Shown here in pieces: positions 1-23,051 of a stretch of 24,259 nucleotides of DNA. The stretch's first letter is position 1. Each line of letters opens with the position of its first letter. A model generated the notes under the pieces. The model was given only the letters and a program-made list of their open reading frames with translations, ran no database searches and was not told where the DNA came from. Source of the DNA: a virus (lineage: Duplodnaviria; Heunggongvirae; Uroviricota; Caudoviricetes); IMG/VR virus record IMGVR_UViG_3300042204_000022; one strand, 5' to 3'. The translations under genes were made by a program, and so were the position numbers.

Positions 1-127
1 GAGAGCGGCAAATAGAATTGCTTGTCGTTTGCTAAATTTGAAATCAATCTTTTTCATATCATCATTCTAAATTGAAACATAAAAAAAGTCAAGCATAAGC
101 TTGATTTTTCTTTTACACTCTTGCAGA
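1..127 (-). repeat. Exact inverted copy of 4576-4702 (promoter and first codons of the 4646 gene, ending at the TTGCAGA core)
   Basis: Base-by-base reverse complement; position n pairs with 4703-n; identity stops at base 128. Confidence 0.95.
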
Positions 128-139
128 GAGTGCAGTAAG
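116..139 (+). repeat. Recombination site S1: CACTC-TTGCAGA-GAGTGCAGTAAG (symmetric arms)
   Basis: Core 121-127 flanked by the inverted pentamers CACTC/GAGTG. Confidence 0.85.
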
Positions 140-491
140 CTCTTCGAAACTAGACCGCAGCACGTTTCCTGCGTCTCTAAACGACTCTAATTCAGCCTCG
201 TCAGGAAGCGTAAGCCGCTCCGTTACTATACCTGCAAAGGGTCTTGTTATTGCGTTTGGAGTTGTTAGAAAGGGGCCCTCAGGGGCACTGTCTGGGGTCA
301 TCAGTGCGTCAGGAACCGCATTCGTTAGTGGGGTAGGAACGTCATCGGCAAACGACCTTGGGTATGCAACAATTCCAGCAATTAGATTCATCAACGTGCA
401 GCCCGGTACGCTTACTGTATCCATGAACGGAACCGACAACCTCGCCATAGCGTTGACATTTATACCTGTTATTTCATCTACGTTCGCCTAG
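120..491 (+). CDS. Silent variable cassette A (no start codon): LAESAVSSSKLDRSTFPAS...LTFIPVISSTFA*
   Basis: Open frame from S1 to TAG 489-491. It is missing from the ORF track because it has no upstream start. Confidence 0.8.
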   Translation, partial: LAESAVSSSKLDRSTFPASLNDSNSASSGSVSRSVTIPAKGLVIAFGVVRKGPSGALSGVISASGTAFVSGVGTSSANDLGYATIPAIRFINVQPGTLTVSMNGTDNLAIALTFIPVISSTFA

Positions 492-518
492 TGTTGCACC
501 ACCTGCAAGAGCGTTGAA

Positions 519-833
519 CTAATCTACGTAAATAAACGACCCGTCGTCGAGCACTTGGTCGATCTTTTCGTCGCCAATATTCTTTAAGAGGGACTTAAAT
601 GTTTTTTCTACTTCAGTGCTATCGCTATTAGTTGTCCACACGAACATGGCAAACTTTTTATCGTTTTTTTCGTAGTTCTTTCCGTAAGAGTATATTGGTG
701 CTACGCTGCTCGATCTGACCAATATCCCGTTCTTAAGATATGGGTATCCGCCAGAGAAGGTTCTGACATACATTTCGTCTTTTCTTAGTGCGTGGCAAAG
801 ACCAACTTTATCGTGTTCTGCGTATTGTTTCAT
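519..833 (-). CDS. Hypothetical 104-aa passenger protein inside the inversion array
   Basis: ORF with a dedicated promoter directly upstream; no recognisable motif. Confidence 0.7.
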   Translation of the reverse strand: MKQYAEHDKVGLCHALRKDEMYVRTFSGGYPYLKNGILVRSSSVAPIYSYGKNYEKNDKKFAMFVWTTNSDSTEVEKTFKSLLKNIGDEKIDQVLDDGSFIYVD

Positions 834-839
834 ATACTA

Positions 840-868
840 ATTATACCAAAGCATTACCGTTTTGGCAA
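840..868 (-). promoter_or_regulatory. Sigma70 promoter TTGCCA-17-(TGG)TATAAT, 6 nt before ATG 833 (leaderless)
   Basis: -35 at 863-868, -10 at 840-845. Confidence 0.75.
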
Positions 869-873
869 ATCAA

Positions 874-897
874 CACTCTTGCAGATAATGGTGTAAC
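874..897 (+). repeat. Recombination site S2: CACTC-TTGCAGA-TAATGGTGTAAC
   Basis: Core 879-885; 872-897 is identical (26 bp) to 2736-2761. Confidence 0.85.
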
Positions 898-1210
898 AGC
901 CAATAAGATAGATTTTTCTACTATACAAAGTGGGTGGAATTTCGTGGTTGGAAGCGGGACCGCTAATTCAACAAAAACAATAACATTTAGCGACTCGTTT
1001 TCTGCTCCCCCACTGGTATTTATGTCAATGATTGGATATAAAACTGGATCTAACCCAACATCGCCAACCGATATAAACGCACCAGCGTCTTGGACGGTAG
1101 GAACGAACAATGTGACCTCAAACGATTTTCTAGCGTTCTATTCTCAAGCTAGTGGTACGCTCGCAACTAATGTGCGGATACTATTCTACTGGATAGCGAT
1201 TGGGAATTAA
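878..1210 (+). CDS. Silent variable cassette B, gp53-like/H-type-lectin-like tail-fibre C-terminal domain: LADNGVTANKIDFSTIQSGW...FYWIAIGN*
   Basis: In frame from S2. Motifs QSGW, TITFSDSF..PP.V and YWIAIG are typical of tail-fibre C-termini. The track start at 788 overlaps the opposite-strand gene and is unlikely. Confidence 0.8.
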   Translation, partial: LADNGVTANKIDFSTIQSGWNFVVGSGTANSTKTITFSDSFSAPPLVFMSMIGYKTGSNPTSPTDINAPASWTVGTNNVTSNDFLAFYSQASGTLATNVRILFYWIAIGN

Positions 1211-1215
1211 CCCCT

Positions 1216-1662
1216 TTTGCAGAGAGTGCAGTAACAAGATCAAAAATAGGTTCTTCGACATTTCCGAAGGTGCACGCCTACAGAGCTGCTGCTGTTAATT
1301 CAACTAATGGTTCTGGTAGTAAAATAGTATTTGATACAGAGACAATTGACACCCATAACGCTTACAGCACGTCTACTGGAGTTTTTACCGCGCCATACAC
1401 GGGAGACTACTTCATTAGCATCGGTGGTGGCAACACGGCTGCGACAAGTACTGTGATGTATTGGTACATAAAAAGAAACAGCACCACTATCAGACAAGGT
1501 ACTGTCTGGAATCCTTCGAACACTAACAATCGTCAAACATTAACGACCACAGTTTCATTAACTGCGTCAGACACTATTGAGTGTTGGTATGTAGGTGGTG
1601 GAGGTTCGGTTATCGCCGTAGGTCAAGAGAATCTATTTCTTGATATTAACTACTTACCTTAG
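1216..1662 (+). CDS. Silent variable cassette C, C1q/TNF-like domain: FAESAVTRSKIGSSTFPKVHAY...LDINYLP*
   Basis: In frame from S3; FDTETIDTHNAYSTSTGVFTAPYTGDYFI matches the C1q-like F..N...Y...TG.FTAP..G.Y.F pattern. Confidence 0.8.
   Translation, partial: FAESAVTRSKIGSSTFPKVHAYRAAAVNSTNGSGSKIVFDTETIDTHNAYSTSTGVFTAPYTGDYFISIGGGNTAATSTVMYWYIKRNSTTIRQGTVWNPSNTNNRQTLTTTVSLTASDTIECWYVGGGGSVIAVGQENLFLDINYLP
1217..1235 (+). repeat. Recombination site S3: TTGCAGA-GAGTGCAGTAAC
   Basis: Core begins 6 nt after the stop of cassette B. Confidence 0.85.
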
Positions 1663-2103
1663 TTAAATCAACTCAACCATAATAAATGGTTTAGTATTTG
1701 AAGCACTGATTGTTCCTGCATTACAGGCGATTGTTCCTGAACCAGATTGACGATATGCTGTAAGTTTATAGGTGTGTGAACCCGCAGACGGAGCGTCTAC
1801 GATTACCGACCAATATGCGTTATAGCCAAAAACATTAGGGTGAGCTAAGGTGTGAAAACCTAGATAGGTAGAACCTTCTTTGATGAATACACGAGATGTA
1901 TCACCAGAGCTTGTACTTGATAGCCATGTCTGAGCGGTGATACGTATCGAGCGTCCACCTGTCGGAATGCTCACCGTAATGCTTAGACCTGTTAGGTCTA
2001 CCTCTGTTGATGTGATACCGCCTTGGGTCGTCGAGGTTGTTGCGTAGCCTAAAAGTATTGCTCCTGGAGCGACCTTCGTGGCTGTCACTGCACTCTCTGC
2101 AAA
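1663..2103 (-). CDS. Silent variable cassette D: FAESAVTATKVAPGAILLGY...PFIMVELI*
   Basis: In frame from S4; its stop abuts the stop of cassette C; beta-rich, with a GSHTYKL motif. Confidence 0.8.
   Translation of the reverse strand, partial: FAESAVTATKVAPGAILLGYATTSTTQGGITSTEVDLTGLSITVSIPTGGRSIRITAQTWLSSTSSGDTSRVFIKEGSTYLGFHTLAHPNVFGYNAYWSVIVDAPSAGSHTYKLTAYRQSGSGTIACNAGTISASNTKPFIMVELI
2084..2102 (-). repeat. Recombination site S4: TTGCAGA-GAGTGCAGTGAC
   Basis: Core 2096-2102 on the minus strand. Confidence 0.85.
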
Positions 2104-2115
2104 AATGATTGCTTA

Positions 2116-2508
2116 TCAAGTACCAAATGCGACCCAAGTATAGAATAGCGTGTGACCAGCCGTGAAGTTAGCCCCCTGTCTTGTGATAACGACCTGAAAA
2201 CCTGTTGTTGACTCGTTATTCGCCGCAGCCTGCATGTTATCAATATAAGATGTTGACGTTCCTGGATATGCACCAGAACCACTTCCTGTCATTATGCCAC
2301 CCCCCGCTGTTACTAGTACGACGGGGAGACTCGTATACGGAGTCGGAAATGTCACAGACTCTGAAAGATTTGTTGCTGCCGCCCCGGCGATTCTCCCCCA
2401 GCCATACTGAATCTTGACGCTATTGGGGTTGGAGTTGGTGGTATCATATTGTCTCGCTATGAAAGTACCGAAATCGACTTTACTACCCGTTACAGCATTG
2501 TCTGCAAG
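2116..2508 (-). CDS. Silent variable cassette E, gp53-like tail-fibre C-terminal domain: LADNAVTGSKVDFGTF...IQYGWG...VTFPTPY...YTWVAFGT*
   Basis: In frame from S5 to TGA; shares motifs with cassette B. Confidence 0.8.
   Translation of the reverse strand, partial: LADNAVTGSKVDFGTFIARQYDTTNSNPNSVKIQYGWGRIAGAAATNLSESVTFPTPYTSLPVVLVTAGGGIMTGSGSGAYPGTSTSYIDNMQAAANNESTTGFQVVITRQGANFTAGHTLFYTWVAFGT
2489..2507 (-). repeat. Recombination site S5: TTGCAGA-CAATGCTGTAAC
   Basis: Core 2501-2507 on the minus strand; upstream arm is CTTTC. Confidence 0.8.
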
Positions 2509-2521
2509 AAAGTCAACCCCT

Positions 2522-2537
2522 ATTATGGTATAATAAA
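2522..2537 (+). promoter_or_regulatory. Extended -10 promoter ATTATGGTATAATAAA for the constant exon
   Basis: TGnTATAAT with no good -35; the 16-mer is identical to the one upstream of the portal gene (23121-23136, minus). Confidence 0.7.
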
Positions 2538-2603
2538 GTTAATGAATGTCCTCTTTTTGGACTAGAAAATAAAAGAAAAACACCCTCGGAGAATACAAAA
2601 AGC

Positions 2604-3191
2604 ATGGCATTACCAAACCCCGGAATGGACGCAGTACCGTTCACGCCACTTACAGCTGAATTTTTAGACGACATGATCGAGAATATCGAGTCTCTATCAG
2701 ATGGTACAGGGTTCGAAAATGGTGCAATTACCACGAACACTCTTGCAGATAATGGTGTAACGATAGATAAGATCGATAGTTCCGGCTATCCTAGGTTTAT
2801 TGCCAGCAAGAACGTAAGTCAGGGCGGAGCGACCACCGGGACAGTAATAGCATATCCCGCCAAAGAGCTTGACACACATAACGCGTACAGTACCGCTAAC
2901 TCAAGATTCACGGCGCCAATATCGGGTACGTACATGTTCATGGCCGGAGCATTCGCAAACGGTGCGGCCAATACTGGACTCATTATCAATATATCTAAAA
3001 ACGGAGTGGCACAATATCGCGGAGGAGACGGTGCTGGATCGGCATTCGAGAGAGGTTCAAATGTTGTGGCACTTGTTCAACTGTCCGCGGGCGACTATGT
3101 TGATGTTCGCATTCAGTATATAGCCGGAACCAGTAATATAGAGGGGTTCGCATCCCACAAATTCAGTGGGTTTATGGTATTCGGGTCGTAG
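2604..3191 (+). CDS. Expressed receptor-binding/tail-fibre protein: constant N-terminus (2604-2741) fused at S6 to cassette F (C1q-like)
   Basis: The only ORF in the array with an ATG and promoter ahead of a site; C-terminal DTHNAYSTANSRFTAPISGTYMF is a C1q-like motif shared with cassette C. Confidence 0.85.
   Translation: MALPNPGMDAVPFTPLTAEFLDDMIENIESLSDGTGFENGAITTNTLADNGVTIDKIDSSGYPRFIASKNVSQGGATTGTVIAYPAKELDTHNAYSTANSRFTAPISGTYMFMAGAFANGAANTGLIINISKNGVAQYRGGDGAGSAFERGSNVVALVQLSAGDYVDVRIQYIAGTSNIEGFASHKFSGFMVFGS
2738..2761 (+). repeat. Recombination site S6 (expression site): CACTC-TTGCAGA-TAATGGTGTAAC
   Basis: Core 2743-2749 inside codons T-L-A-D. Confidence 0.88.
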
Positions 3192-3194
3192 TCT

Positions 3195-3617
3195 TTTGCA
3201 GAGAGTGCAGTAACACGTTCTAAAATAGATTTTACTACCTTTGTTGGCTACTATACAAACATCAGTACAATCACTACAATTACAGCAGGGAACTTCAGTG
3301 GTACGTCAACTCGTTCAAGTCAATCCGCTACCATCCCAGCCAACTGTACTAGGGCGTTAATCGTTGCTACCGTTCGTCTACAGTCTCAGGGGGCGTCAGC
3401 GAATGACATGTCTTCTAGAATACAAGTAGGAGGAAGTGGAAATAGCACTGGTACTGGTGTTGTTACTGGAGTAGGGACATTTAACGGTAGTATGTCTACT
3501 ATGCTTGGAATACTCACTGTTTCTCCGGGTTCTAACACCTTTGATTTGGTTTGTACTGCTGTGTCAAGCGCCTCAGCTTCAAACTACACTTGTCTTGTTA
3601 TACCGTTACCAAGTTAA
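3195..3617 (+). CDS. Silent variable cassette G: FAESAVTRSKIDFTTFVGYY...CLVIPLPS*
   Basis: In frame from S7; includes the track ORF 3408-3617. Confidence 0.8.
   Translation, partial: FAESAVTRSKIDFTTFVGYYTNISTITTITAGNFSGTSTRSSQSATIPANCTRALIVATVRLQSQGASANDMSSRIQVGGSGNSTGTGVVTGVGTFNGSMSTMLGILTVSPGSNTFDLVCTAVSSASASNYTCLVIPLPS
3196..3214 (+). repeat. Recombination site S7: TTGCAGA-GAGTGCAGTAAC
   Basis: Core begins 4 nt after the stop of cassette F. Confidence 0.85.
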
Positions 3618-4144
3618 TCGTGTCCTAGAACGATAACACTTGAGTTTGCAGCAAAGTTGCCTGTTCCGCCAACGTTTACTATCTCAATACTACTAATCTG
3701 ATTTGATGAGTTCGCCCATTTGACAAGCAATTCGGCACGATCCGGAGCAGAGGCCGCACTAGACGGCGTACCAGTGAAGTTACCAAACCTCTGTACTGTT
3801 ATATTCTTTTCGTTCGTGGCAATATTCACGACATCTAATATTCCTCCCGCGAATGTATACGCAAACGCACCCGCTAAAGATGCTCTGTTTTGGCTAACCG
3901 ATGTACTATCGGCACCACCGTTTGTTGATATACGCACAGCATAGTTGTTGCCACTATCACCGTTGAGTCTAAATGCGTTTTCTACTGTTCCCCCTGTCGC
4001 GTGTATAGAGACATAAATACGTAGATATTTTTTCGGCGTGAATGACAATGCGATGCTTCCGCTGGTAGTGCCCAGAACTGTTCTACCAAGTTCCTCCCAC
4101 CATATTCCAGAGGTCTTACTAAAGGTTACTGCACTCTCTGCAAA
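3614..4144 (-). CDS. Silent variable cassette H: FAESAVTFSKTSGIWWEELGRTVL...VIVLGHD*
   Basis: In frame from S8; its stop shares the palindrome TTAA (3614-3617) with cassette G. Confidence 0.8.
   Translation of the reverse strand, partial: FAESAVTFSKTSGIWWEELGRTVLGTTSGSIALSFTPKKYLRIYVSIHATGGTVENAFRLNGDSGNNYAVRISTNGGADSTSVSQNRASLAGAFAYTFAGGILDVVNIATNEKNITVQRFGNFTGTPSSAASAPDRAELLVKWANSSNQISSIEIVNVGGTGNFAANSSVIVLGHD
4125..4143 (-). repeat. Recombination site S8: TTGCAGA-GAGTGCAGTAAC
   Basis: Core 4137-4143 on the minus strand. Confidence 0.85.
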
Positions 4145-4148
4145 AATG

Positions 4149-4583
4149 TTACAGCGGGATGACCGTTATTCTTCTGTCTAAGAAGTGACCAACACCAGCA
4201 TTGATTTTATATTGCATCTTGAAAGTTGTAGAACCTTGGTTAAGACCAGTCAAAAGAAATGTTGCCCCTATTCTACATCCAGCATTTGTTGTTACATTGT
4301 CTACTAAACGAGTCTGAACAGACAGGTTCTCTGCTGGAGCAATTGTATTCGCGCCACTAGCGACAAACCCTATAAAGTTGTTGGCAGTAGCTGTGTCACT
4401 CATTGTGCTTCCATAGAGGCAGACAAGTGCTAGCCCGTTAAGACCAATTGTCACAGTAACAGATGGACCTGTAGTTGCTAAGTCAACAAAAGAACCGACC
4501 GTAGAGGTGCTTTGCTGTGTGGCTACAAAAGCTGTAGTCGCGCCAGTATTGAGTTTTCTTGGCGTTATAACATTATCTGCAAG
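4149..4583 (-). CDS. Silent variable cassette I: LADNVITPRKLNTGATTAFV...RRITVIPL*
   Basis: In frame from S9; resembles cassette D (VDL.....VTV, GSTTFK). Confidence 0.8.
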   Translation of the reverse strand, partial: LADNVITPRKLNTGATTAFVATQQSTSTVGSFVDLATTGPSVTVTIGLNGLALVCLYGSTMSDTATANNFIGFVASGANTIAPAENLSVQTRLVDNVTTNAGCRIGATFLLTGLNQGSTTFKMQYKINAGVGHFLDRRITVIPL

Positions 4584-4587
4584 AGTG
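4564..4587 (-). repeat. Recombination site S9 (right boundary): CACTC-TTGCAGA-TAATGTTATAAC
   Basis: Core 4576-4582 on the minus strand. Confidence 0.85.
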
Positions 4588-4592
4588 TAAAA

Positions 4593-4622
4593 GAAAAATC
4601 AAGCTTATGCTTGACTTTTTTT
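4593..4622. terminator. Possible bidirectional intrinsic terminator or operator: A-tract TCAAGC-TTAT-GCTTGA T-tract
   Basis: 6-bp stem at 4599-4614 followed by T-runs on both strands; overlaps the -35 of the 4646 promoter. Confidence 0.45.
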
Positions 4623-4639
4623 ATGTTTCAATTTAGAAT
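4611..4639 (+). promoter_or_regulatory. Sigma70 promoter TTGACT-17-TAGAAT, 6 nt before ATG 4646 (leaderless)
   Basis: -35 at 4611-4616, -10 at 4634-4639. Confidence 0.75.
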
Positions 4640-4645
4640 GATGAT

Positions 4646-5185
4646 ATGAAAAAGATTGATTTCAAATTTAGCAAACGACAAGCAATTCTATTTGCCGCTC
4701 TCATAGCTCTCACAGGCTTCGGAGCATGGTCAGCGAACACTTTATCGTCTTCTGGGCCACAAGCGTCTGTAGATAGCTTAAAACACGTCACAGAGCATGT
4801 TTCTGACGTGCCGTCTAGTGTAGAACCAGAAATTGCTGATAATACGGTCGTAAACGTCGCTCCCGCTACGCAAGAAGTCGCACCTGAACCAAAACCCGCT
4901 GAAGCACCAGCACCAACCGTCTATGAAAAGTACGGGGTGAGCGAATCTATCGTTCAGAAATTTGAATCATACTATCCTACCTACGCAAGTCAGAACAAAG
5001 ACTTGTTCGTATCAGATGTCAGTAAGGTTGTATCTGCTGTCGGCGAAGATAATGCTGTGCGTGTTATAGAGACTCATGCGAATAAGACTGGGGTGAACGG
5101 CACTACTACCGCCGAGAAGAACTCATTCATGAGGCTTCATCTCACCTACGGAATCTCTTTTGAGCCTTGGTCTACTGTGTTGTAG
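4646..5185 (+). CDS. Moron-like membrane-anchored or exported protein
   Basis: Basic N-terminus plus hydrophobic segment (AILFAALIALTGFGAW), Pro/Ala-rich linker, own promoter, antisense to the tail operon. Confidence 0.7.
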   Translation: MKKIDFKFSKRQAILFAALIALTGFGAWSANTLSSSGPQASVDSLKHVTEHVSDVPSSVEPEIADNTVVNVAPATQEVAPEPKPAEAPAPTVYEKYGVSESIVQKFESYYPTYASQNKDLFVSDVSKVVSAVGEDNAVRVIETHANKTGVNGTTTAEKNSFMRLHLTYGISFEPWSTVL

Positions 5186-19967: not shown

Positions 19968-20606
19968 ATGGACAAACAAATTATCTACTACTACAAAAGA
20001 GGCGTGGCTTCGTACCTCATCGCCAAAAAATTCAAGGTCAGTAACAGTTACGTTAGAAATACCCTTGAAAAACATGGCGTTAAGCTCAGAGGACATAGCG
20101 TCACAAATAAAATCTCAGCTTCAAGACGCACTCCTGAAGAAAACAAGCTCATAACAGCAAAAGCTGCTGAATCTAACCTCGGTTCTATACATTCTGGTGC
20201 TCACAGAGCTAAATTAGCGCTGTCTAGACAGAAGAACCCTGCAATTGACCCCGTATATGAAAAACCGCTTGTCGAACTGTGCAATAAGCTCAAAATTGAG
20301 GTCGTCCCGCAAAAGGCATTCAGTAAGTTCAACGTTGACTTGTATTTACCACAAAAAGGTGTTGTAATAGAGATTTTTGGGGGTGGGTTTCACAATAAGC
20401 AAGATGCTATTGACTTATTCAACAATAAAATGAAACACCTGTCAAGAAAACAGGTGCCTGTGGTCATTGTTTGGGCTGATAAGCTAACCTATAGCCCTAT
20501 GAGCGTGCTTGAAGTCGCTCTAAACGTCAAAGATAAGCTCACAGTCATCAATGGTGACGGCAAGCCGACCACTCGTGGTCTAAACGACATCCTCATCGAC
20601 AATTAG
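19968..20606 (+). CDS. Free-standing endonuclease-like protein: N-terminal HTH plus DUF559/Vsr-like PD-(D/E)xK domain
   Basis: IAKKFKVSNSYVRNTLEKHGVKLR HTH; FNVDLYLPQKGVVIEIFGGGFH nuclease motif. Confidence 0.7.
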   Translation: MDKQIIYYYKRGVASYLIAKKFKVSNSYVRNTLEKHGVKLRGHSVTNKISASRRTPEENKLITAKAAESNLGSIHSGAHRAKLALSRQKNPAIDPVYEKPLVELCNKLKIEVVPQKAFSKFNVDLYLPQKGVVIEIFGGGFHNKQDAIDLFNNKMKHLSRKQVPVVIVWADKLTYSPMSVLEVALNVKDKLTVINGDGKPTTRGLNDILIDN

Positions 20607-23051
20607 ACGATACGCACAGTGGCAGTTAGGGTGAACATTGCCCGCTGTGATTGCTTCGTAGTTGAACGTCATTTTTCTATCAGGAGTCTCGATAGTTTTA
20701 CCCATATCAACGAATGCTTGGGTGAAAGGAATCGGGGCTTTATTTGTTTGCGTGATTATATATTCACAAATACTGCATGGGTCGCCAGTGAGAGAGAAGA
20801 GTTGCTTGTATGCTTTGTCAACAAGCCCCGCACGAGTCAAGAACTGAAGGTCTGCTTCGTACTGAGAGATGTTGAAGATTCTGGCAGCTGCGTTGTTTGC
20901 GATAGTTGTCGCACGACGTTTTTGAATGTCTGCGAACGCCTGTTCGAATAACGCCTTGAACTCTGATGGGTTTGAGGTCTTGGTACGAATAATCGCAAGA
21001 GCGTTCTCAATGTCGGTCTTAATCGTATTCATGTGAGAGGTTGCTTCTCTGCGAGCAAAGTCCTTAATAACTTCTTTCACCTCTTCAGTCATAGCAACAA
21101 TAGGCACTTCGTCAGTAATGTCTAGACTATTAGCTGTCTGCTGAACCCTGTAAGATGCGTAGATAGGGAACATCACCGTAAAGTACACAGCGAATGGTAG
21201 TGTCATACCGTTAATGAAATCATCTAGGTCTGCGTGAGGGTTTAGGTCGCCGTTATTGATCTCATTAACGTACCAGTTATAAAGACCCTCTTCAGCTGAT
21301 TCTGCTGAAGTTAAAAGGTCGTTGGTGTTTGAGTCGATAAGAGCCTGCTGGTCAAAAGCAGCGTTTTTGATGACTTCGTAGATGTCGTGATGACAATCGT
21401 GGTTTAGATCAATTTTTTTTTTAATCGCTACTGGTTGGTTCTTGTAGCGTTTGTTGAGTTTAGCGATAATCGCTGGTCTATCTGCGTTCTGATTGAACTC
21501 ACCTAGCTTGATGTAGGTGGTGCCGTCAACTACGGCGATAAGCGAGTTTTGCATTTCGTCGATTCTAGTAATACGTACCGTCTTAGACGCTGCGTTTAGC
21601 TGAAGAAGTGGTTCGTTCGAGTAAATGAATGAGCCCTGCTCTGAAATAGAGTTAATCTGGTCGGCTTGGTCGGTCAAGTACTGAAGTACGGGGATTGGGT
21701 AGCCCTCGTAAACGTCGAACGCCTTATCTGTATAAGATGAAGTCTCTACGACCTCTTCAACAGGTTCGGTCTCTTCTTCGACCGCAACTTTTTCTTCTGG
21801 CTCTTCGGGTTCTTCAGGTTCACCGATGTCGGTAATACTTAGGTCTCCGTTAGCGTACTTGGCTGCGATGTCGTATGTGTACCCAGCCTTGATAAGTGAC
21901 TGCTGTAGGTTGAAGCGTGAGTCACGAATGTCAACTTCAGCTTGAATAGCGTCATAGTTTGCTTCGAGTGGGTTGTCGAGTGATAGAGAGTAGCCGTTGC
22001 TCTTATATTGGTCATTGTAGTATCTACGGTAATCGAGGTTCAATGCGTCGATAATGTTTTCAATCTGAGGCATGATGGCGTTTTCGGTGAAGTCGTCCTT
22101 TTGCGAACGAGATACTTCACGTCCAGTACCAGTTTGCTCCATACCTAGACCTGTTACTGATAGACCAGAGACAGCGATGAGGGTGTCACGGTTAATCGAG
22201 TTAATCTTATCAAGAGCCGCTTTGTCGAGGTCTTGCTGCATGTCTGTCCATGTAACTGTACCTGCACCGTTACCAAATAGAGGTTCACCACGCCCGTGGT
22301 GCTTAATTCTCTCTACGAAGTTGTCGAATTGGTCGTCCGGTAGCTCAATAGCTGAAGATAGGATTCCCGGTGCGTTCAAGTTGCCATCAATGGCTTCACG
22401 AGCAAAGTCGTTAGCTTGCTTCATGGTGAACTGTGAGTCGCGGGCTGCATCAGCTAGCGAGTATGCTTTTTCTGGATCGAACGGGTTAAGAAGACGAATA
22501 GGAATAATCATCTCTTTAGGGATTTCACGACGTAGGTCATTACGCTGCTCTATATATCCGCCGAGATTTCCTCTTGTGTCTACGACTGCACGAATGTTAT
22601 ATGGGTTAAGAAGGGTGAACTTCTGAATGTTACCTACTTTACCTGAAGCAGTGACTGCACGAACAGCCATCAAGTAGTAAACACCTTCTAGGTCAAGGTA
22701 TGTAGAGATGTCGTACCAAAAGTCTCTTTCTGAGAAATCAGTCGATTCACGAATCAGGTTCAAGTAAGGGTGAACAATCTTTTCTCCCTTTTCATTCGCC
22801 CTTGCGATCACCGACTCTTTAGCGTTGGTGTACAAGAACTTCTTACCGATAACAACCGAGCGGTTAGCACGCTTGTTAACTACAGCAAAGCCAAGTCCTG
22901 TGTAGAAATCTTCATCTGAGATTTCAGGAGTTGACCAAGTAGATGGCATACGGCGACTTCCATACTTTAAGAAAGAGTTCGGATCAGGTCCGCCGTTAGT
23001 AGTTTTATTAAATGCCGCTAGAGCGTTTTTGAATCTTTTAGTTATTTCCAC
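20580..23051 (-). CDS. Portal protein fused to a MuF-like head morphogenesis domain
   Basis: N-terminal portal-like region (YLDLEGVYYL, IIPIRLLNP.....AYS, GNLNAPGIL); acidic linker; C-terminal CSIC...HPNCHC MuF-type motif. Confidence 0.8.
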   Translation of the reverse strand: MEITKRFKNALAAFNKTTNGGPDPNSFLKYGSRRMPSTWSTPEISDEDFYTGLGFAVVNKRANRSVVIGKKFLYTNAKESVIARANEKGEKIVHPYLNLIRESTDFSERDFWYDISTYLDLEGVYYLMAVRAVTASGKVGNIQKFTLLNPYNIRAVVDTRGNLGGYIEQRNDLRREIPKEMIIPIRLLNPFDPEKAYSLADAARDSQFTMKQANDFAREAIDGNLNAPGILSSAIELPDDQFDNFVERIKHHGRGEPLFGNGAGTVTWTDMQQDLDKAALDKINSINRDTLIAVSGLSVTGLGMEQTGTGREVSRSQKDDFTENAIMPQIENIIDALNLDYRRYYNDQYKSNGYSLSLDNPLEANYDAIQAEVDIRDSRFNLQQSLIKAGYTYDIAAKYANGDLSITDIGEPEEPEEPEEKVAVEEETEPVEEVVETSSYTDKAFDVYEGYPIPVLQYLTDQADQINSISEQGSFIYSNEPLLQLNAASKTVRITRIDEMQNSLIAVVDGTTYIKLGEFNQNADRPAIIAKLNKRYKNQPVAIKKKIDLNHDCHHDIYEVIKNAAFDQQALIDSNTNDLLTSAESAEEGLYNWYVNEINNGDLNPHADLDDFINGMTLPFAVYFTVMFPIYASYRVQQTANSLDITDEVPIVAMTEEVKEVIKDFARREATSHMNTIKTDIENALAIIRTKTSNPSEFKALFEQAFADIQKRRATTIANNAAARIFNISQYEADLQFLTRAGLVDKAYKQLFSLTGDPCSICEYIITQTNKAPIPFTQAFVDMGKTIETPDRKMTFNYEAITAGNVHPNCHCAYRLIVDEDVV

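What the first reader, a model, noticed from the sequence alone, without database searches (positions are those of the whole stretch)
121..4582. Nine-cassette shufflon for a phage receptor-binding protein
Seen: nine TTGCAGA cores in 4.5 kb (121, 879, 1217, 2743, 3196 on plus; 2096, 2501, 4137, 4576 on minus). Each is followed by a conserved 12-bp arm and opens a start-less 110-176 codon ORF in the same frame ((L/F)A(D/E)(N/S)x(V/I)(T/S)xxK). Four cassettes start 4-13 nt after the previous stop, and convergent stops abut or overlap. Only one site follows an ATG-bearing constant exon. Known: the R64 shufflon (Rci) and Gin/Cin/Min systems swap C-termini of adhesins or tail fibres by inversion. 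Inferred: inversions fuse any of nine binding domains onto one 46-aa N-terminus to switch host receptor. Nine variants is large for a phage, and standard gene callers would fragment or miss the cassettes.
Basis: partly seen in the sequence, partly recalled or inferred. Interest (0 to 1): 0.95.

Follow-up and report, generated by a model that had tools for sequence, protein, structure and literature searches.

The report
Nine-cassette phage tail-tip shufflon
An uncultured ~88-kb phage carries a DNA-flipping switch, run by its own small tyrosine recombinase, that can join one short fixed gene start to any of nine stored alternative tips of a likely host-attachment protein; switches of this kind are already known in a few phages, and this is a large, differently arranged example.

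Summary
There are nine TTGCAGA cores, each in frame at the head of a start-less 110-176-codon cassette. A single 46-aa ATG-bearing exon (2604-2741) carries its own promoter. It sits mid-array on a 236-bp segment between inverted sites.

The window holds no recombinase. Other assemblies of the same phage (100 % identical) place an intact 283-aa Xer-like tyrosine recombinase 70 nt from the array's missing left flank.

Those assemblies hold the whole 4.46-kb array in both orientations, with breakpoints exactly at the outer cores. One sample holds both. The window's first 127 bases are the alternative junction. So recombination at these cores occurs in nature.

Internal switching was not seen: every assembly shows exon|F. 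In related phages, however, the same exon is fused at the same site to cassettes 92-93 % identical to silent cassettes E and G.

The tips are lectin-, C1q- and tail-protein-like domains.

This is a Rin-type phage shufflon (PMC6109161) in a new arrangement. This scan has already noted many such shufflons on other DNA, two of them with 16 cassettes.

The parts
1..127 (.). Contig-end copy of the right flank (exact reverse complement of 4576-4702) joined to cassette A. This is the alternative junction flank|A.
   Evidence: identity is 127/127 and ends at the last base of the core. L108, L109, L111, L118 and L119 carry this junction mid-contig.
120..491 (+). Cassette A (123 codons; core 121-127; ES-class arm). 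No family match.
502..508 (-). Decayed tenth site (TTGCAGG) after the small gene. Only 11 codons stay open behind it.
   Evidence: In relative L122 the same position holds an intact TTGCAGA site and a 142-codon cassette.
519..836 (-). Small conserved gene (104 aa from ATG 833) inside the array. Its promoter-like site (868-840) forms the left half of site B.
   Evidence: It lies next to the anchor gene in L001-L004 and L122. No Pfam or PHROG match.
878..1210 (+). Cassette B (110 codons; core 879-885; DN-class arm). H-type lectin domain.
   Evidence: PF09458, 26.4 bits against a cut-off of 24; phrog_1910 lectin.
1216..1662 (+). Cassette C (148 codons; core 1217-1223; ES class). C1q-like domain.
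   Evidence: PF00386, E = 3.8e-6; 30 % identical to F.
1663..2103 (-). Cassette D (146 codons; core 2096-2102; ES class).
   Evidence: 38 % identical to the C-terminal part of the fixed full-length gene in L002/L003.
2116..2508 (-). Cassette E (130 codons; core 2501-2507; DN class). Weak H-type lectin match.
   Evidence: P0152 is the constant exon fused to a cassette 92 % identical to E.
2508..2742 (+). Invertible promoter-plus-exon segment between sites E (-) and F (+). It holds an extended -10-like TGGTATAAT (2527-2535) and the constant exon, ATG 2604 to codon 46 at 2741.
   Evidence: (I5). The exon is 100 % conserved in L001, P0152 and P0162.
2742..3191 (+). Cassette F (149 codons; core 2743-2749; DN class), currently fused to the exon to give a 195-aa protein with a gC1q-type head.
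   Evidence: PF00386, E = 1.6e-8; model pLDDT 86.6. TM 0.83-0.87 to C1q globular domains.
3195..3617 (+). Cassette G (140 codons; core 3196-3202; ES class).
   Evidence: P0162 / L122 is the constant exon fused to a cassette 93 % (aa) or 88 % (nt) identical to G.
3614..4144 (-). Cassette H (176 codons; core 4137-4143; ES class).
   Evidence: Several family members carry H-like tips at 31-44 % identity on the same N-terminus.
4149..4583 (-). Cassette I (144 codons; core 4576-4582; DN class). Resembles the C-terminus of a 'minor tail protein' family.
   Evidence: phrog_7565, E = 2.4e-20, profile positions 757-880 of 882; 34 % identical to the tip of the L005 protein.
4583..4645 (.). Right flank: left arm ACACTC, a terminator-like hairpin (4599-4614) and a promoter-like site (4611-4639) for the next gene.
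4646..5185 (+). Flanking gene (179 aa, hydrophobic N-terminus). It served as the anchor to find other assemblies.

Best explanation
This is a multiple-inversion shufflon run by a phage-encoded, arm-less, Xer-like tyrosine recombinase. The 283-aa recombinase lies just left of the array, outside the window. Each site is an imperfect dyad, roughly CAYTN-TTGCAGA-NARTG. The asymmetric 7-bp core gives the site its polarity, and the core plus right arm encode (L/F)A(D/E)(N/S)xV(T) in frame. Recombination between two oppositely oriented cores inverts the DNA between them. This joins the single promoter-bearing 46-aa exon in frame to a different start-less cassette. The exon models as an N-terminal helix plus linker and is the probable anchor to the tail tip. 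It sits mid-array on a 236-bp invertible segment, so it can read left or right. One inversion reaches tips D, E, H and I; two inversions reach A, B, C and G. The tips have unrelated binding-type folds, so switching should change which host surface structure the virion binds. Shown: the sites, frames and single start; the recombinase next to the array; inversion of the array at its outer cores in natural populations; the same exon fused to E-like and G-like cassettes in relatives. Inferred: that this recombinase is the catalyst; that the internal sites are used in this phage; that the protein binds the receptor.
For: Sites, frames and the single start. DNA-level conservation of core and arm. 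Recombinase: L108 4548-5399 (-), 70 nt from the left site. It scores PF00589 at E = 5.5e-32 over the full profile and is closest to XerA/XerD/XerC models and structures. R146, K169, H230, R233, H256 and Y265 sit in invariant columns. Inversion: L108, L109, L111, L118, L119 and L124 hold the flank|A and Lx|I junctions, while L110 and the window hold I|flank, all at 100 % identity. Sample 3300042207 has both states, and L114 is the segment as a stand-alone contig. Window 1-127 is the second junction. Co-occurrence: three complete shufflon-less relatives have no PF00589 gene. Relatives with four cassettes keep only recombinase stumps. Cassettes are real tips: B and E are H-lectin, C and F are C1q, I matches a minor-tail C-terminus, and D resembles the tip of a fixed gene. 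P0152 is exon+E-like (92 %) and P0162 is exon+G-like (93 %). Position between the tail module and the lysis module. Reachability of all nine fusions.
Against: No assembly shows any internal junction other than the window's; exon|F is seen in all 5 contigs that cover it. From the present state 20 single inversions are possible, and only the outermost pair is seen, so the site pairs cannot all be equally active. Five sites (C, D, E, G, H) have poorly matching left arms. No reads, no expression data and no binding data are available. The rest of the ~88-kb genome could not be searched for other recombinases.
Confidence: 0.8

Rival explanations
1. Only a two-state flip is active. The recombinase efficiently recombines only the two outer sites, which have good ACACTC left arms. 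The internal cassettes are a near-frozen library that changes partner only on evolutionary time-scales.
For: More than ten assemblies from several samples differ only at the outer junctions. The left arms of C, D, E, G and H match the dyad poorly.
Against: Internal cores and arms are kept identical at synonymous positions while the cassette bodies have drifted to about 30 % identity. Sites B and F have the same good left arm as the outer sites. Relatives use E-like and G-like cassettes at exactly this junction. Consensus contigs hide minority isomers, and variants that change the tip may be removed by host selection.
Confidence: 0.14
2. There is no ongoing inversion. The two orientations are two co-circulating strains that differ by one old rearrangement or by homologous recombination.
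For: Only two states are seen.
Against: The array and flanks are 100 % identical over more than 4.6 kb in both states and across samples. Both states occur in one sample. The breakpoints fall exactly at a 7-bp core with only 13 nt of shared sequence. The F/I pair shares more sequence and is not recombined. An intact recombinase sits alongside.
Confidence: 0.04
3. A serine (Gin/Cin/Min-type) invertase encoded elsewhere drives the inversions, and the neighbouring tyrosine recombinase is a lysogeny integrase.
For: The classical phage tail-fibre inversion systems use serine invertases (PMC6109161). About 58 kb of the genome could not be searched.
Against: Pfam and PHROG scans of the larger ORFs of the window and of the genes left of the array in L108, about 30 kb in all, gave no resolvase-family match. 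The sites are a 7-bp asymmetric core with short inverted arms, not 26-bp dyads with a 2-bp core. The recombinase is short and arm-less. It is absent from shufflon-less relatives and truncated together with the array in L001 and L122.
Confidence: 0.015
4. The cassettes are independent small genes translated from their own starts.
For: Gene callers do call fragments of 58-144 aa inside them.
Against: No in-frame start lies near any cassette head. The first starts lie 19-93 codons in, except GTG at codon 6 of D. All nine begin at the same core in the same frame. Homologues in other phages are always fused to the N-terminal exon.
Confidence: 0.005

Closest known systems
Rin shufflon of Bifidobacterium breve/longum prophages (Mavrich et al. 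2018, PMC6109161); also reported in Eggerthella lenta prophages (PMC8778435)
   Same: Phage-encoded, arm-less, Xer-like tyrosine recombinase. One constant N-terminal coding segment of a tail receptor-binding protein. Several dissimilar, start-less C-terminal cassettes separated by short asymmetric repeats. Isomers seen in natural or induced genomes.
   Different: Rin has five cassettes, and its constant gene and recombinase lie at opposite ends of the array. Here there are nine cassettes plus one decayed. The constant part is only 46 aa and sits with its promoter on a 236-bp invertible segment in the middle of two four-cassette blocks. The site differs (7-bp TTGCAGA with two arm classes, against the 11-bp TTCCCTAACCC). 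The host phage is an ~88-kb uncultured phage in which no other integrase was seen in the parts examined. Sequence relatedness to Rin itself was not tested.
R64 / IncI plasmid shufflon (Rci recombinase, pilV); my own knowledge plus PMC9881135
   Same: Tyrosine recombinase. A 7-bp core with a conserved 12-bp arm on one side and a poorly conserved arm on the other. Multiple inversions swap the C-terminus of an adhesin.
   Different: That system is on a plasmid and acts on a pilus adhesin, not a phage protein. Its constant segment lies outside the invertible DNA. It has four segments and seven sites. There is no sequence similarity of sites. The recombinase here scores nearest to Xer models; Rci was not compared.
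Tail-fibre shufflon of BV01-like Phocaeicola vulgatus phages (preprint, PMC13596623)
   Same: A recombinase-flanked multi-cassette inversion region overlapping the distal end of a tail-fibre gene, with configurations varying between samples.
   Different: That system has three cassettes, six isoforms and 10-bp TGGGAGAACT motifs, and all configurations were confirmed by reads. Here there are nine cassettes and only one inversion is documented.
Gin (Mu), Cin (P1) and Min (p15B) tail-fibre inversion systems (as summarised in PMC6109161)
   Same: DNA inversion swaps C-terminal parts of phage tail fibres to change host range. Min is a multi-site system.
   Different: Those use serine invertases with different site architecture. 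No such enzyme was found near this array.

Membership tests
Shufflon (multiple-inversion system) | Three or more crossover sites in both orientations sharing one core | tested here: met
   Nine TTGCAGA cores, five on the plus strand and four on the minus, plus one decayed.
Shufflon (multiple-inversion system) | One constant 5' coding segment and several alternative, start-less 3' segments, all in frame at the site | tested here: met
   Only site F follows an ATG-led frame. All nine cassettes share the frame and lack starts.
Shufflon (multiple-inversion system) | Dedicated site-specific recombinase encoded at the locus | tested here: met
   Not in the window. In 100 %-identical assemblies L108 and L124 a 283/275-aa PF00589 gene lies 70 nt from the left site.
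Shufflon (multiple-inversion system) | Several isomers produced by inversions at different site pairs | tested here: inconclusive
   Two isomers were found, both from the outer A/I pair. No internal isomer appeared in the assemblies sampled. Reads could not be examined.
Tyrosine recombinase (PF00589) | Complete catalytic domain with the R-K-H-R-H/W-Y residues | tested here: met
   PF00589 profile positions 2-168 of 172, E = 5.5e-32. R146, K169, H230, R233, H256 and Y265 are invariant in alignment A3.
Rin shufflon (Bifidobacterium prophages) | Arm-less Xer-like tyrosine invertase acting on a receptor-binding-protein gene | tested here: met
   283 aa, with only a core-binding and a catalytic domain. 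Best matches are XerA/XerD/XerC, below their cut-offs.
Rin shufflon (Bifidobacterium prophages) | Constant gene at one end of the array, recombinase at the other, and 11-bp rix site TTCCCTAACCC (PMC6109161) | tested here: not met
   The constant exon is central and itself invertible. The site is TTGCAGA plus an arm.
Rin shufflon (Bifidobacterium prophages) | Recombinase orthologous to Rin | not tested
   No Rin sequence was available from a tool. The nearest deposited phage proteins are under 30 % identical.
Gin/Cin/Min serine-invertase systems | Serine (resolvase-family) invertase at the locus | tested here: not met
   Pfam and PHROG scans of the larger ORFs of the window and of the genes left of the array in L108 gave no resolvase-family match. 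A direct PF00239 search of the whole record was not possible, so the remainder of the genome is unsearched.
Phage receptor-binding / tail-tip protein | [quoted passage not shown] | tested here: met
   The gene follows the tape-measure, a 521-aa tail protein and small tail genes, and precedes the lysis genes. Tips are C1q, H-lectin and minor-tail C-terminus types. 69 proteins share the anchor with variable tips. Presence in virions and binding were not tested.

The most novel reading that the evidence does not exclude
The promoter-plus-exon module is a mobile, bidirectional expression unit that toggles between two four-cassette banks. This would let a large, possibly strictly lytic phage release progeny with up to nine tips of at least five unrelated folds from one genome. 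The same recombinase would occasionally delete part of its own gene together with cassettes, locking a lineage onto one tip. That would explain the two relatives with four cassettes and recombinase stumps.
Probability: 0.3. Interest if true: 0.6.

Novelty: new variant of a known kind. Interest (0 to 1): 0.45.

Why it matters
Phage host range is usually treated as fixed by the genome sequence. A nine-way tip switch in an abundant uncultured phage seen in several samples means one genome can target several receptors, and standard gene callers hide this by breaking the cassettes into small 'hypothetical' ORFs. The locus offers three things: a compact natural toolkit (a 46-aa anchor, a 19-bp in-frame junction and interchangeable lectin, C1q and other heads); a clear case of assembly breaks caused by inversion; and a comparative series (intact, reduced and fixed versions) showing how such switches grow and decay. 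It also corrects the reading of this phage's only noted 'integrase' as evidence for lysogeny.

Tried and rejected

Whole-genome searches: no genome is held for the window or for the record behind L108. A genome-wide count of recombinases was therefore impossible.

Site-pattern scans: in IMG/VR only L001 had more than one site. In the metagenome collection all 93 loci had a single match, about the chance level I estimated for the pattern, and none resembled the shufflon parts.

Recombinase relatives: none in IMG/VR. The contexts of P0003 and P0009 were too short or unrelated. Deposited phages match at under 30 % identity.

Anchor protein against deposited phages: no match. Tail region against deposited phages: only a 160-nt tape-measure match.

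Repeats at the junction of L002-L006: none, so these are fixed genes.

Internal isomers: look-ups through the exon|F protein, the small gene and ORFs inside cassettes H and D all returned the standard order. Two short contigs had no DNA available and are uninformative.

Second N-terminal exon upstream of the Lx, flank or B left halves: rejected, because of in-frame stops or the absence of a start.

Pseudo-site at the L001 deletion breakpoint inside the recombinase gene: no convincing core homology.


Full report
OBSERVATION. The window holds 13 against 4.2 expected, and none of 100 shuffles reached that number. In register, every core is followed by a 12-nt arm of one of two classes. The GAGTGCAGTAAC-like class encodes AESAVT (A, C, D, G, H). 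The TAATGGTGTAAC-like class encodes ADNGVT (B, E, F, I). Every core opens an ORF in the same frame, of 110-176 codons. No cassette has a usable start at its head. Only site F is preceded by an ATG-led frame: ATG at 2604, 46 codons. Stops and next cassettes are packed as described. Identity is 1.00 at the core and 0.85-0.93 within a class over the arm, but about 0.30 in the cassette bodies. The sites are therefore held constant at the DNA level.

ANATOMY.
- Left arms. Four left arms end in ACACTC: the true left flank Lx, the right flank, the arm upstream of B, and the constant exon. ACACTC is the inverted repeat of the GAGTG arm across the 7-bp core. The other five match less well. The sites thus look like imperfect dyads around an asymmetric 7-bp spacer, the usual build of a tyrosine-recombinase core site.
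- Constant exon. It lies with an extended -10-like TGGTATAAT (2527-2535) on a 236-bp segment between inverted sites E and F. Cassettes lie on both sides.
- Order. The array reads A, then a decayed site and a small gene, then B C D E, the exon segment, and F G H I. The two four-cassette blocks have the same class and strand pattern (DN+ ES+ ES- DN-).
- Tenth site. TTGCAGG at 502-508 (minus strand) is a decayed tenth site. Relative L122 has an intact site and a 142-codon cassette at that place.

RECOMBINASE AND GENOME CONTEXT. The window has no recombinase and no whole genome is held for it. I tested that lead indirectly. A look-up of the flanking 179-aa protein by exact identity returned other assemblies of the same phage. 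In L108, an 88,145-nt JGI contig, the locus lies mid-contig. The order is r1t-type holin, amidase, a collagen-like protein, a 101-aa protein, a DUF6711-like protein, a 283-aa PF00589 gene, 70 nt of spacer ending in the ACACTC|TTGCAGA site, the array, the flank gene, and the tail module. The protein has a complete catalytic domain (E = 5.5e-32). It is closest to XerA/XerD/XerC models and structures but far below their cut-offs. It has no arm-binding domain. R146, K169, H230, R233, H256 and Y265 fall in invariant columns. The window's contig (88,259 nt) evidently broke inside the array, so the recombinase ended up at its other end.

INVERSION IN NATURE.
- Window 1-127 is the exact reverse complement of 4576-4702, and identity stops at the last base of the core. 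One flank is therefore joined both to cassette I and to cassette A.
- 127 is the largest k-mer in common metaSPAdes settings (my own knowledge). That fits a branching node of the assembly graph.
- L108, L109, L111, L118, L119 and L124 hold flank|A and Lx|I. L110 and the window hold I|flank. All are 100 % identical over the array.
- Sample 3300042207 yields both states (L110 and L118). In three runs the segment 98-4588 assembled as a separate contig (L114).
- The two sites share only 13 nt, less than other site pairs that are not recombined. Site-specific recombination explains this better than homologous recombination.

WHAT THE CASSETTES ENCODE.
- B and E are H-type lectin domains.
- C and F are C1q domains.
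- I matches the C-terminus of a PHROG 'minor tail protein' family at E = 2.4e-20.
- D resembles the tip of the fixed full-length gene of L002/L003, and I resembles that of L005.
- A, G and H have no family match.
- The expressed exon|F protein models with pLDDT 86.6 as a helix (18-33), a linker carrying the site peptide, and a jelly-roll head. The head superposes on C1q globular domains at TM 0.83-0.87. Those domains are trimeric in the solved entries.
- The gene lies after the tape-measure gene, a 521-aa tail protein and small tail genes, and before the lysis genes.
- A search with the N-terminal 53 residues found 69 proteins with this anchor and very different tips. P0152 is the identical exon fused to a cassette 92 % identical to silent cassette E. 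P0162 is the exon fused to a cassette 93 % identical to silent cassette G. Others carry H-, I-, D- and C-like tips.
- No deposited phage has this protein.

RELATIVES.
- L001 (IMG/VR) has the same exon and right flank (98 %) and four different cassettes. Only the last ~60 residues of its recombinase remain, fused to a shufflon half-site.
- L122 has exon|G-like, three further cassettes, and a recombinase lacking about its first 100 residues.
- L002-L006 have a single fixed gene with no repeats. The three complete genomes among them have no PF00589 gene.
- The recombinase therefore travels with the array and decays with it. This argues against a lysogeny integrase.

MECHANISM AND LIMITS. A model of the array shows 20 possible single inversions from the present state. 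Exon|D, E, H and I are each one inversion away, and A, B, C and G are two away. Only the outermost inversion is documented, and it does not change the expressed fusion. Every assembly that covers the exon shows exon|F. Possible reasons are rare internal events, removal of tip-changing variants by the available host, consensus assembly hiding minority forms, or truly inefficient internal sites.

COMPARISON AND NOVELTY. The kind is known. The Rin shufflon of Bifidobacterium prophages has a tyrosine invertase, a constant Rc, five Rv cassettes and 11-bp rix sites (PMC6109161), and is also reported in Eggerthella prophages (PMC8778435). A shufflon in BV01-like phages is described in PMC13596623. 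The older serine-invertase systems Gin, Cin and Min, and the R64 plasmid shufflon, are also known. This scan has already noted many tyrosine-recombinase tail-fibre shufflons on other DNA, two with 16 cassettes. The new features here are the central, self-invertible promoter-plus-exon module between two cassette banks, the very short anchor, the two arm classes, the mix of unrelated tip folds, the uncultured ~88-kb phage lineage, and the series of decayed relatives. I rate it a new variant of a known kind, of moderate interest.

Noticed in passing
window 519-836 (-): A 104-aa protein with no family match lies inside the array. It is found next to the anchor gene in every relative examined (L001-L004, L122), 59-75 % identical where measured (L001-L004), on either side and on either strand. 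It may be an assembly partner or chaperone of the tip protein.
   Followed up: partly
L001 3565-3774 (-); L122 1687-2218 (-): Two independent relatives keep only C-terminal stumps of the shufflon recombinase. The deletion end-points lie at or beside a shufflon half-site or cassette, and each relative has only four cassettes. These look like switches frozen by deletions.
   Followed up: partly
The case for a temperate lifestyle of this phage should be re-examined.
   Followed up: partly
window 4646-5185 (+): A 179-aa protein with a hydrophobic N-terminus and no family match is encoded on the opposite strand between the tail genes and the array. It is conserved in all assemblies and in L122.
   Followed up: no
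window 19968-20606 (+): A 212-aa protein has an N-terminal DNA-binding-like region (weak PHROG matches). By eye, its C-terminal half resembles small endonuclease folds. It lies beside the portal gene and could be a homing-endonuclease-like insert.
   Followed up: no
window 20580-23051 (-): The portal protein is unusually long at 823 aa. The Phage_portal match covers only residues 86-351, so a large C-terminal extension is unexplained.
   Followed up: no
L006 10001-11464: A ~104-kb relative carries the same N-terminal anchor on a 487-aa protein with a much larger middle part. The anchor therefore also serves long fibres.
   Followed up: no
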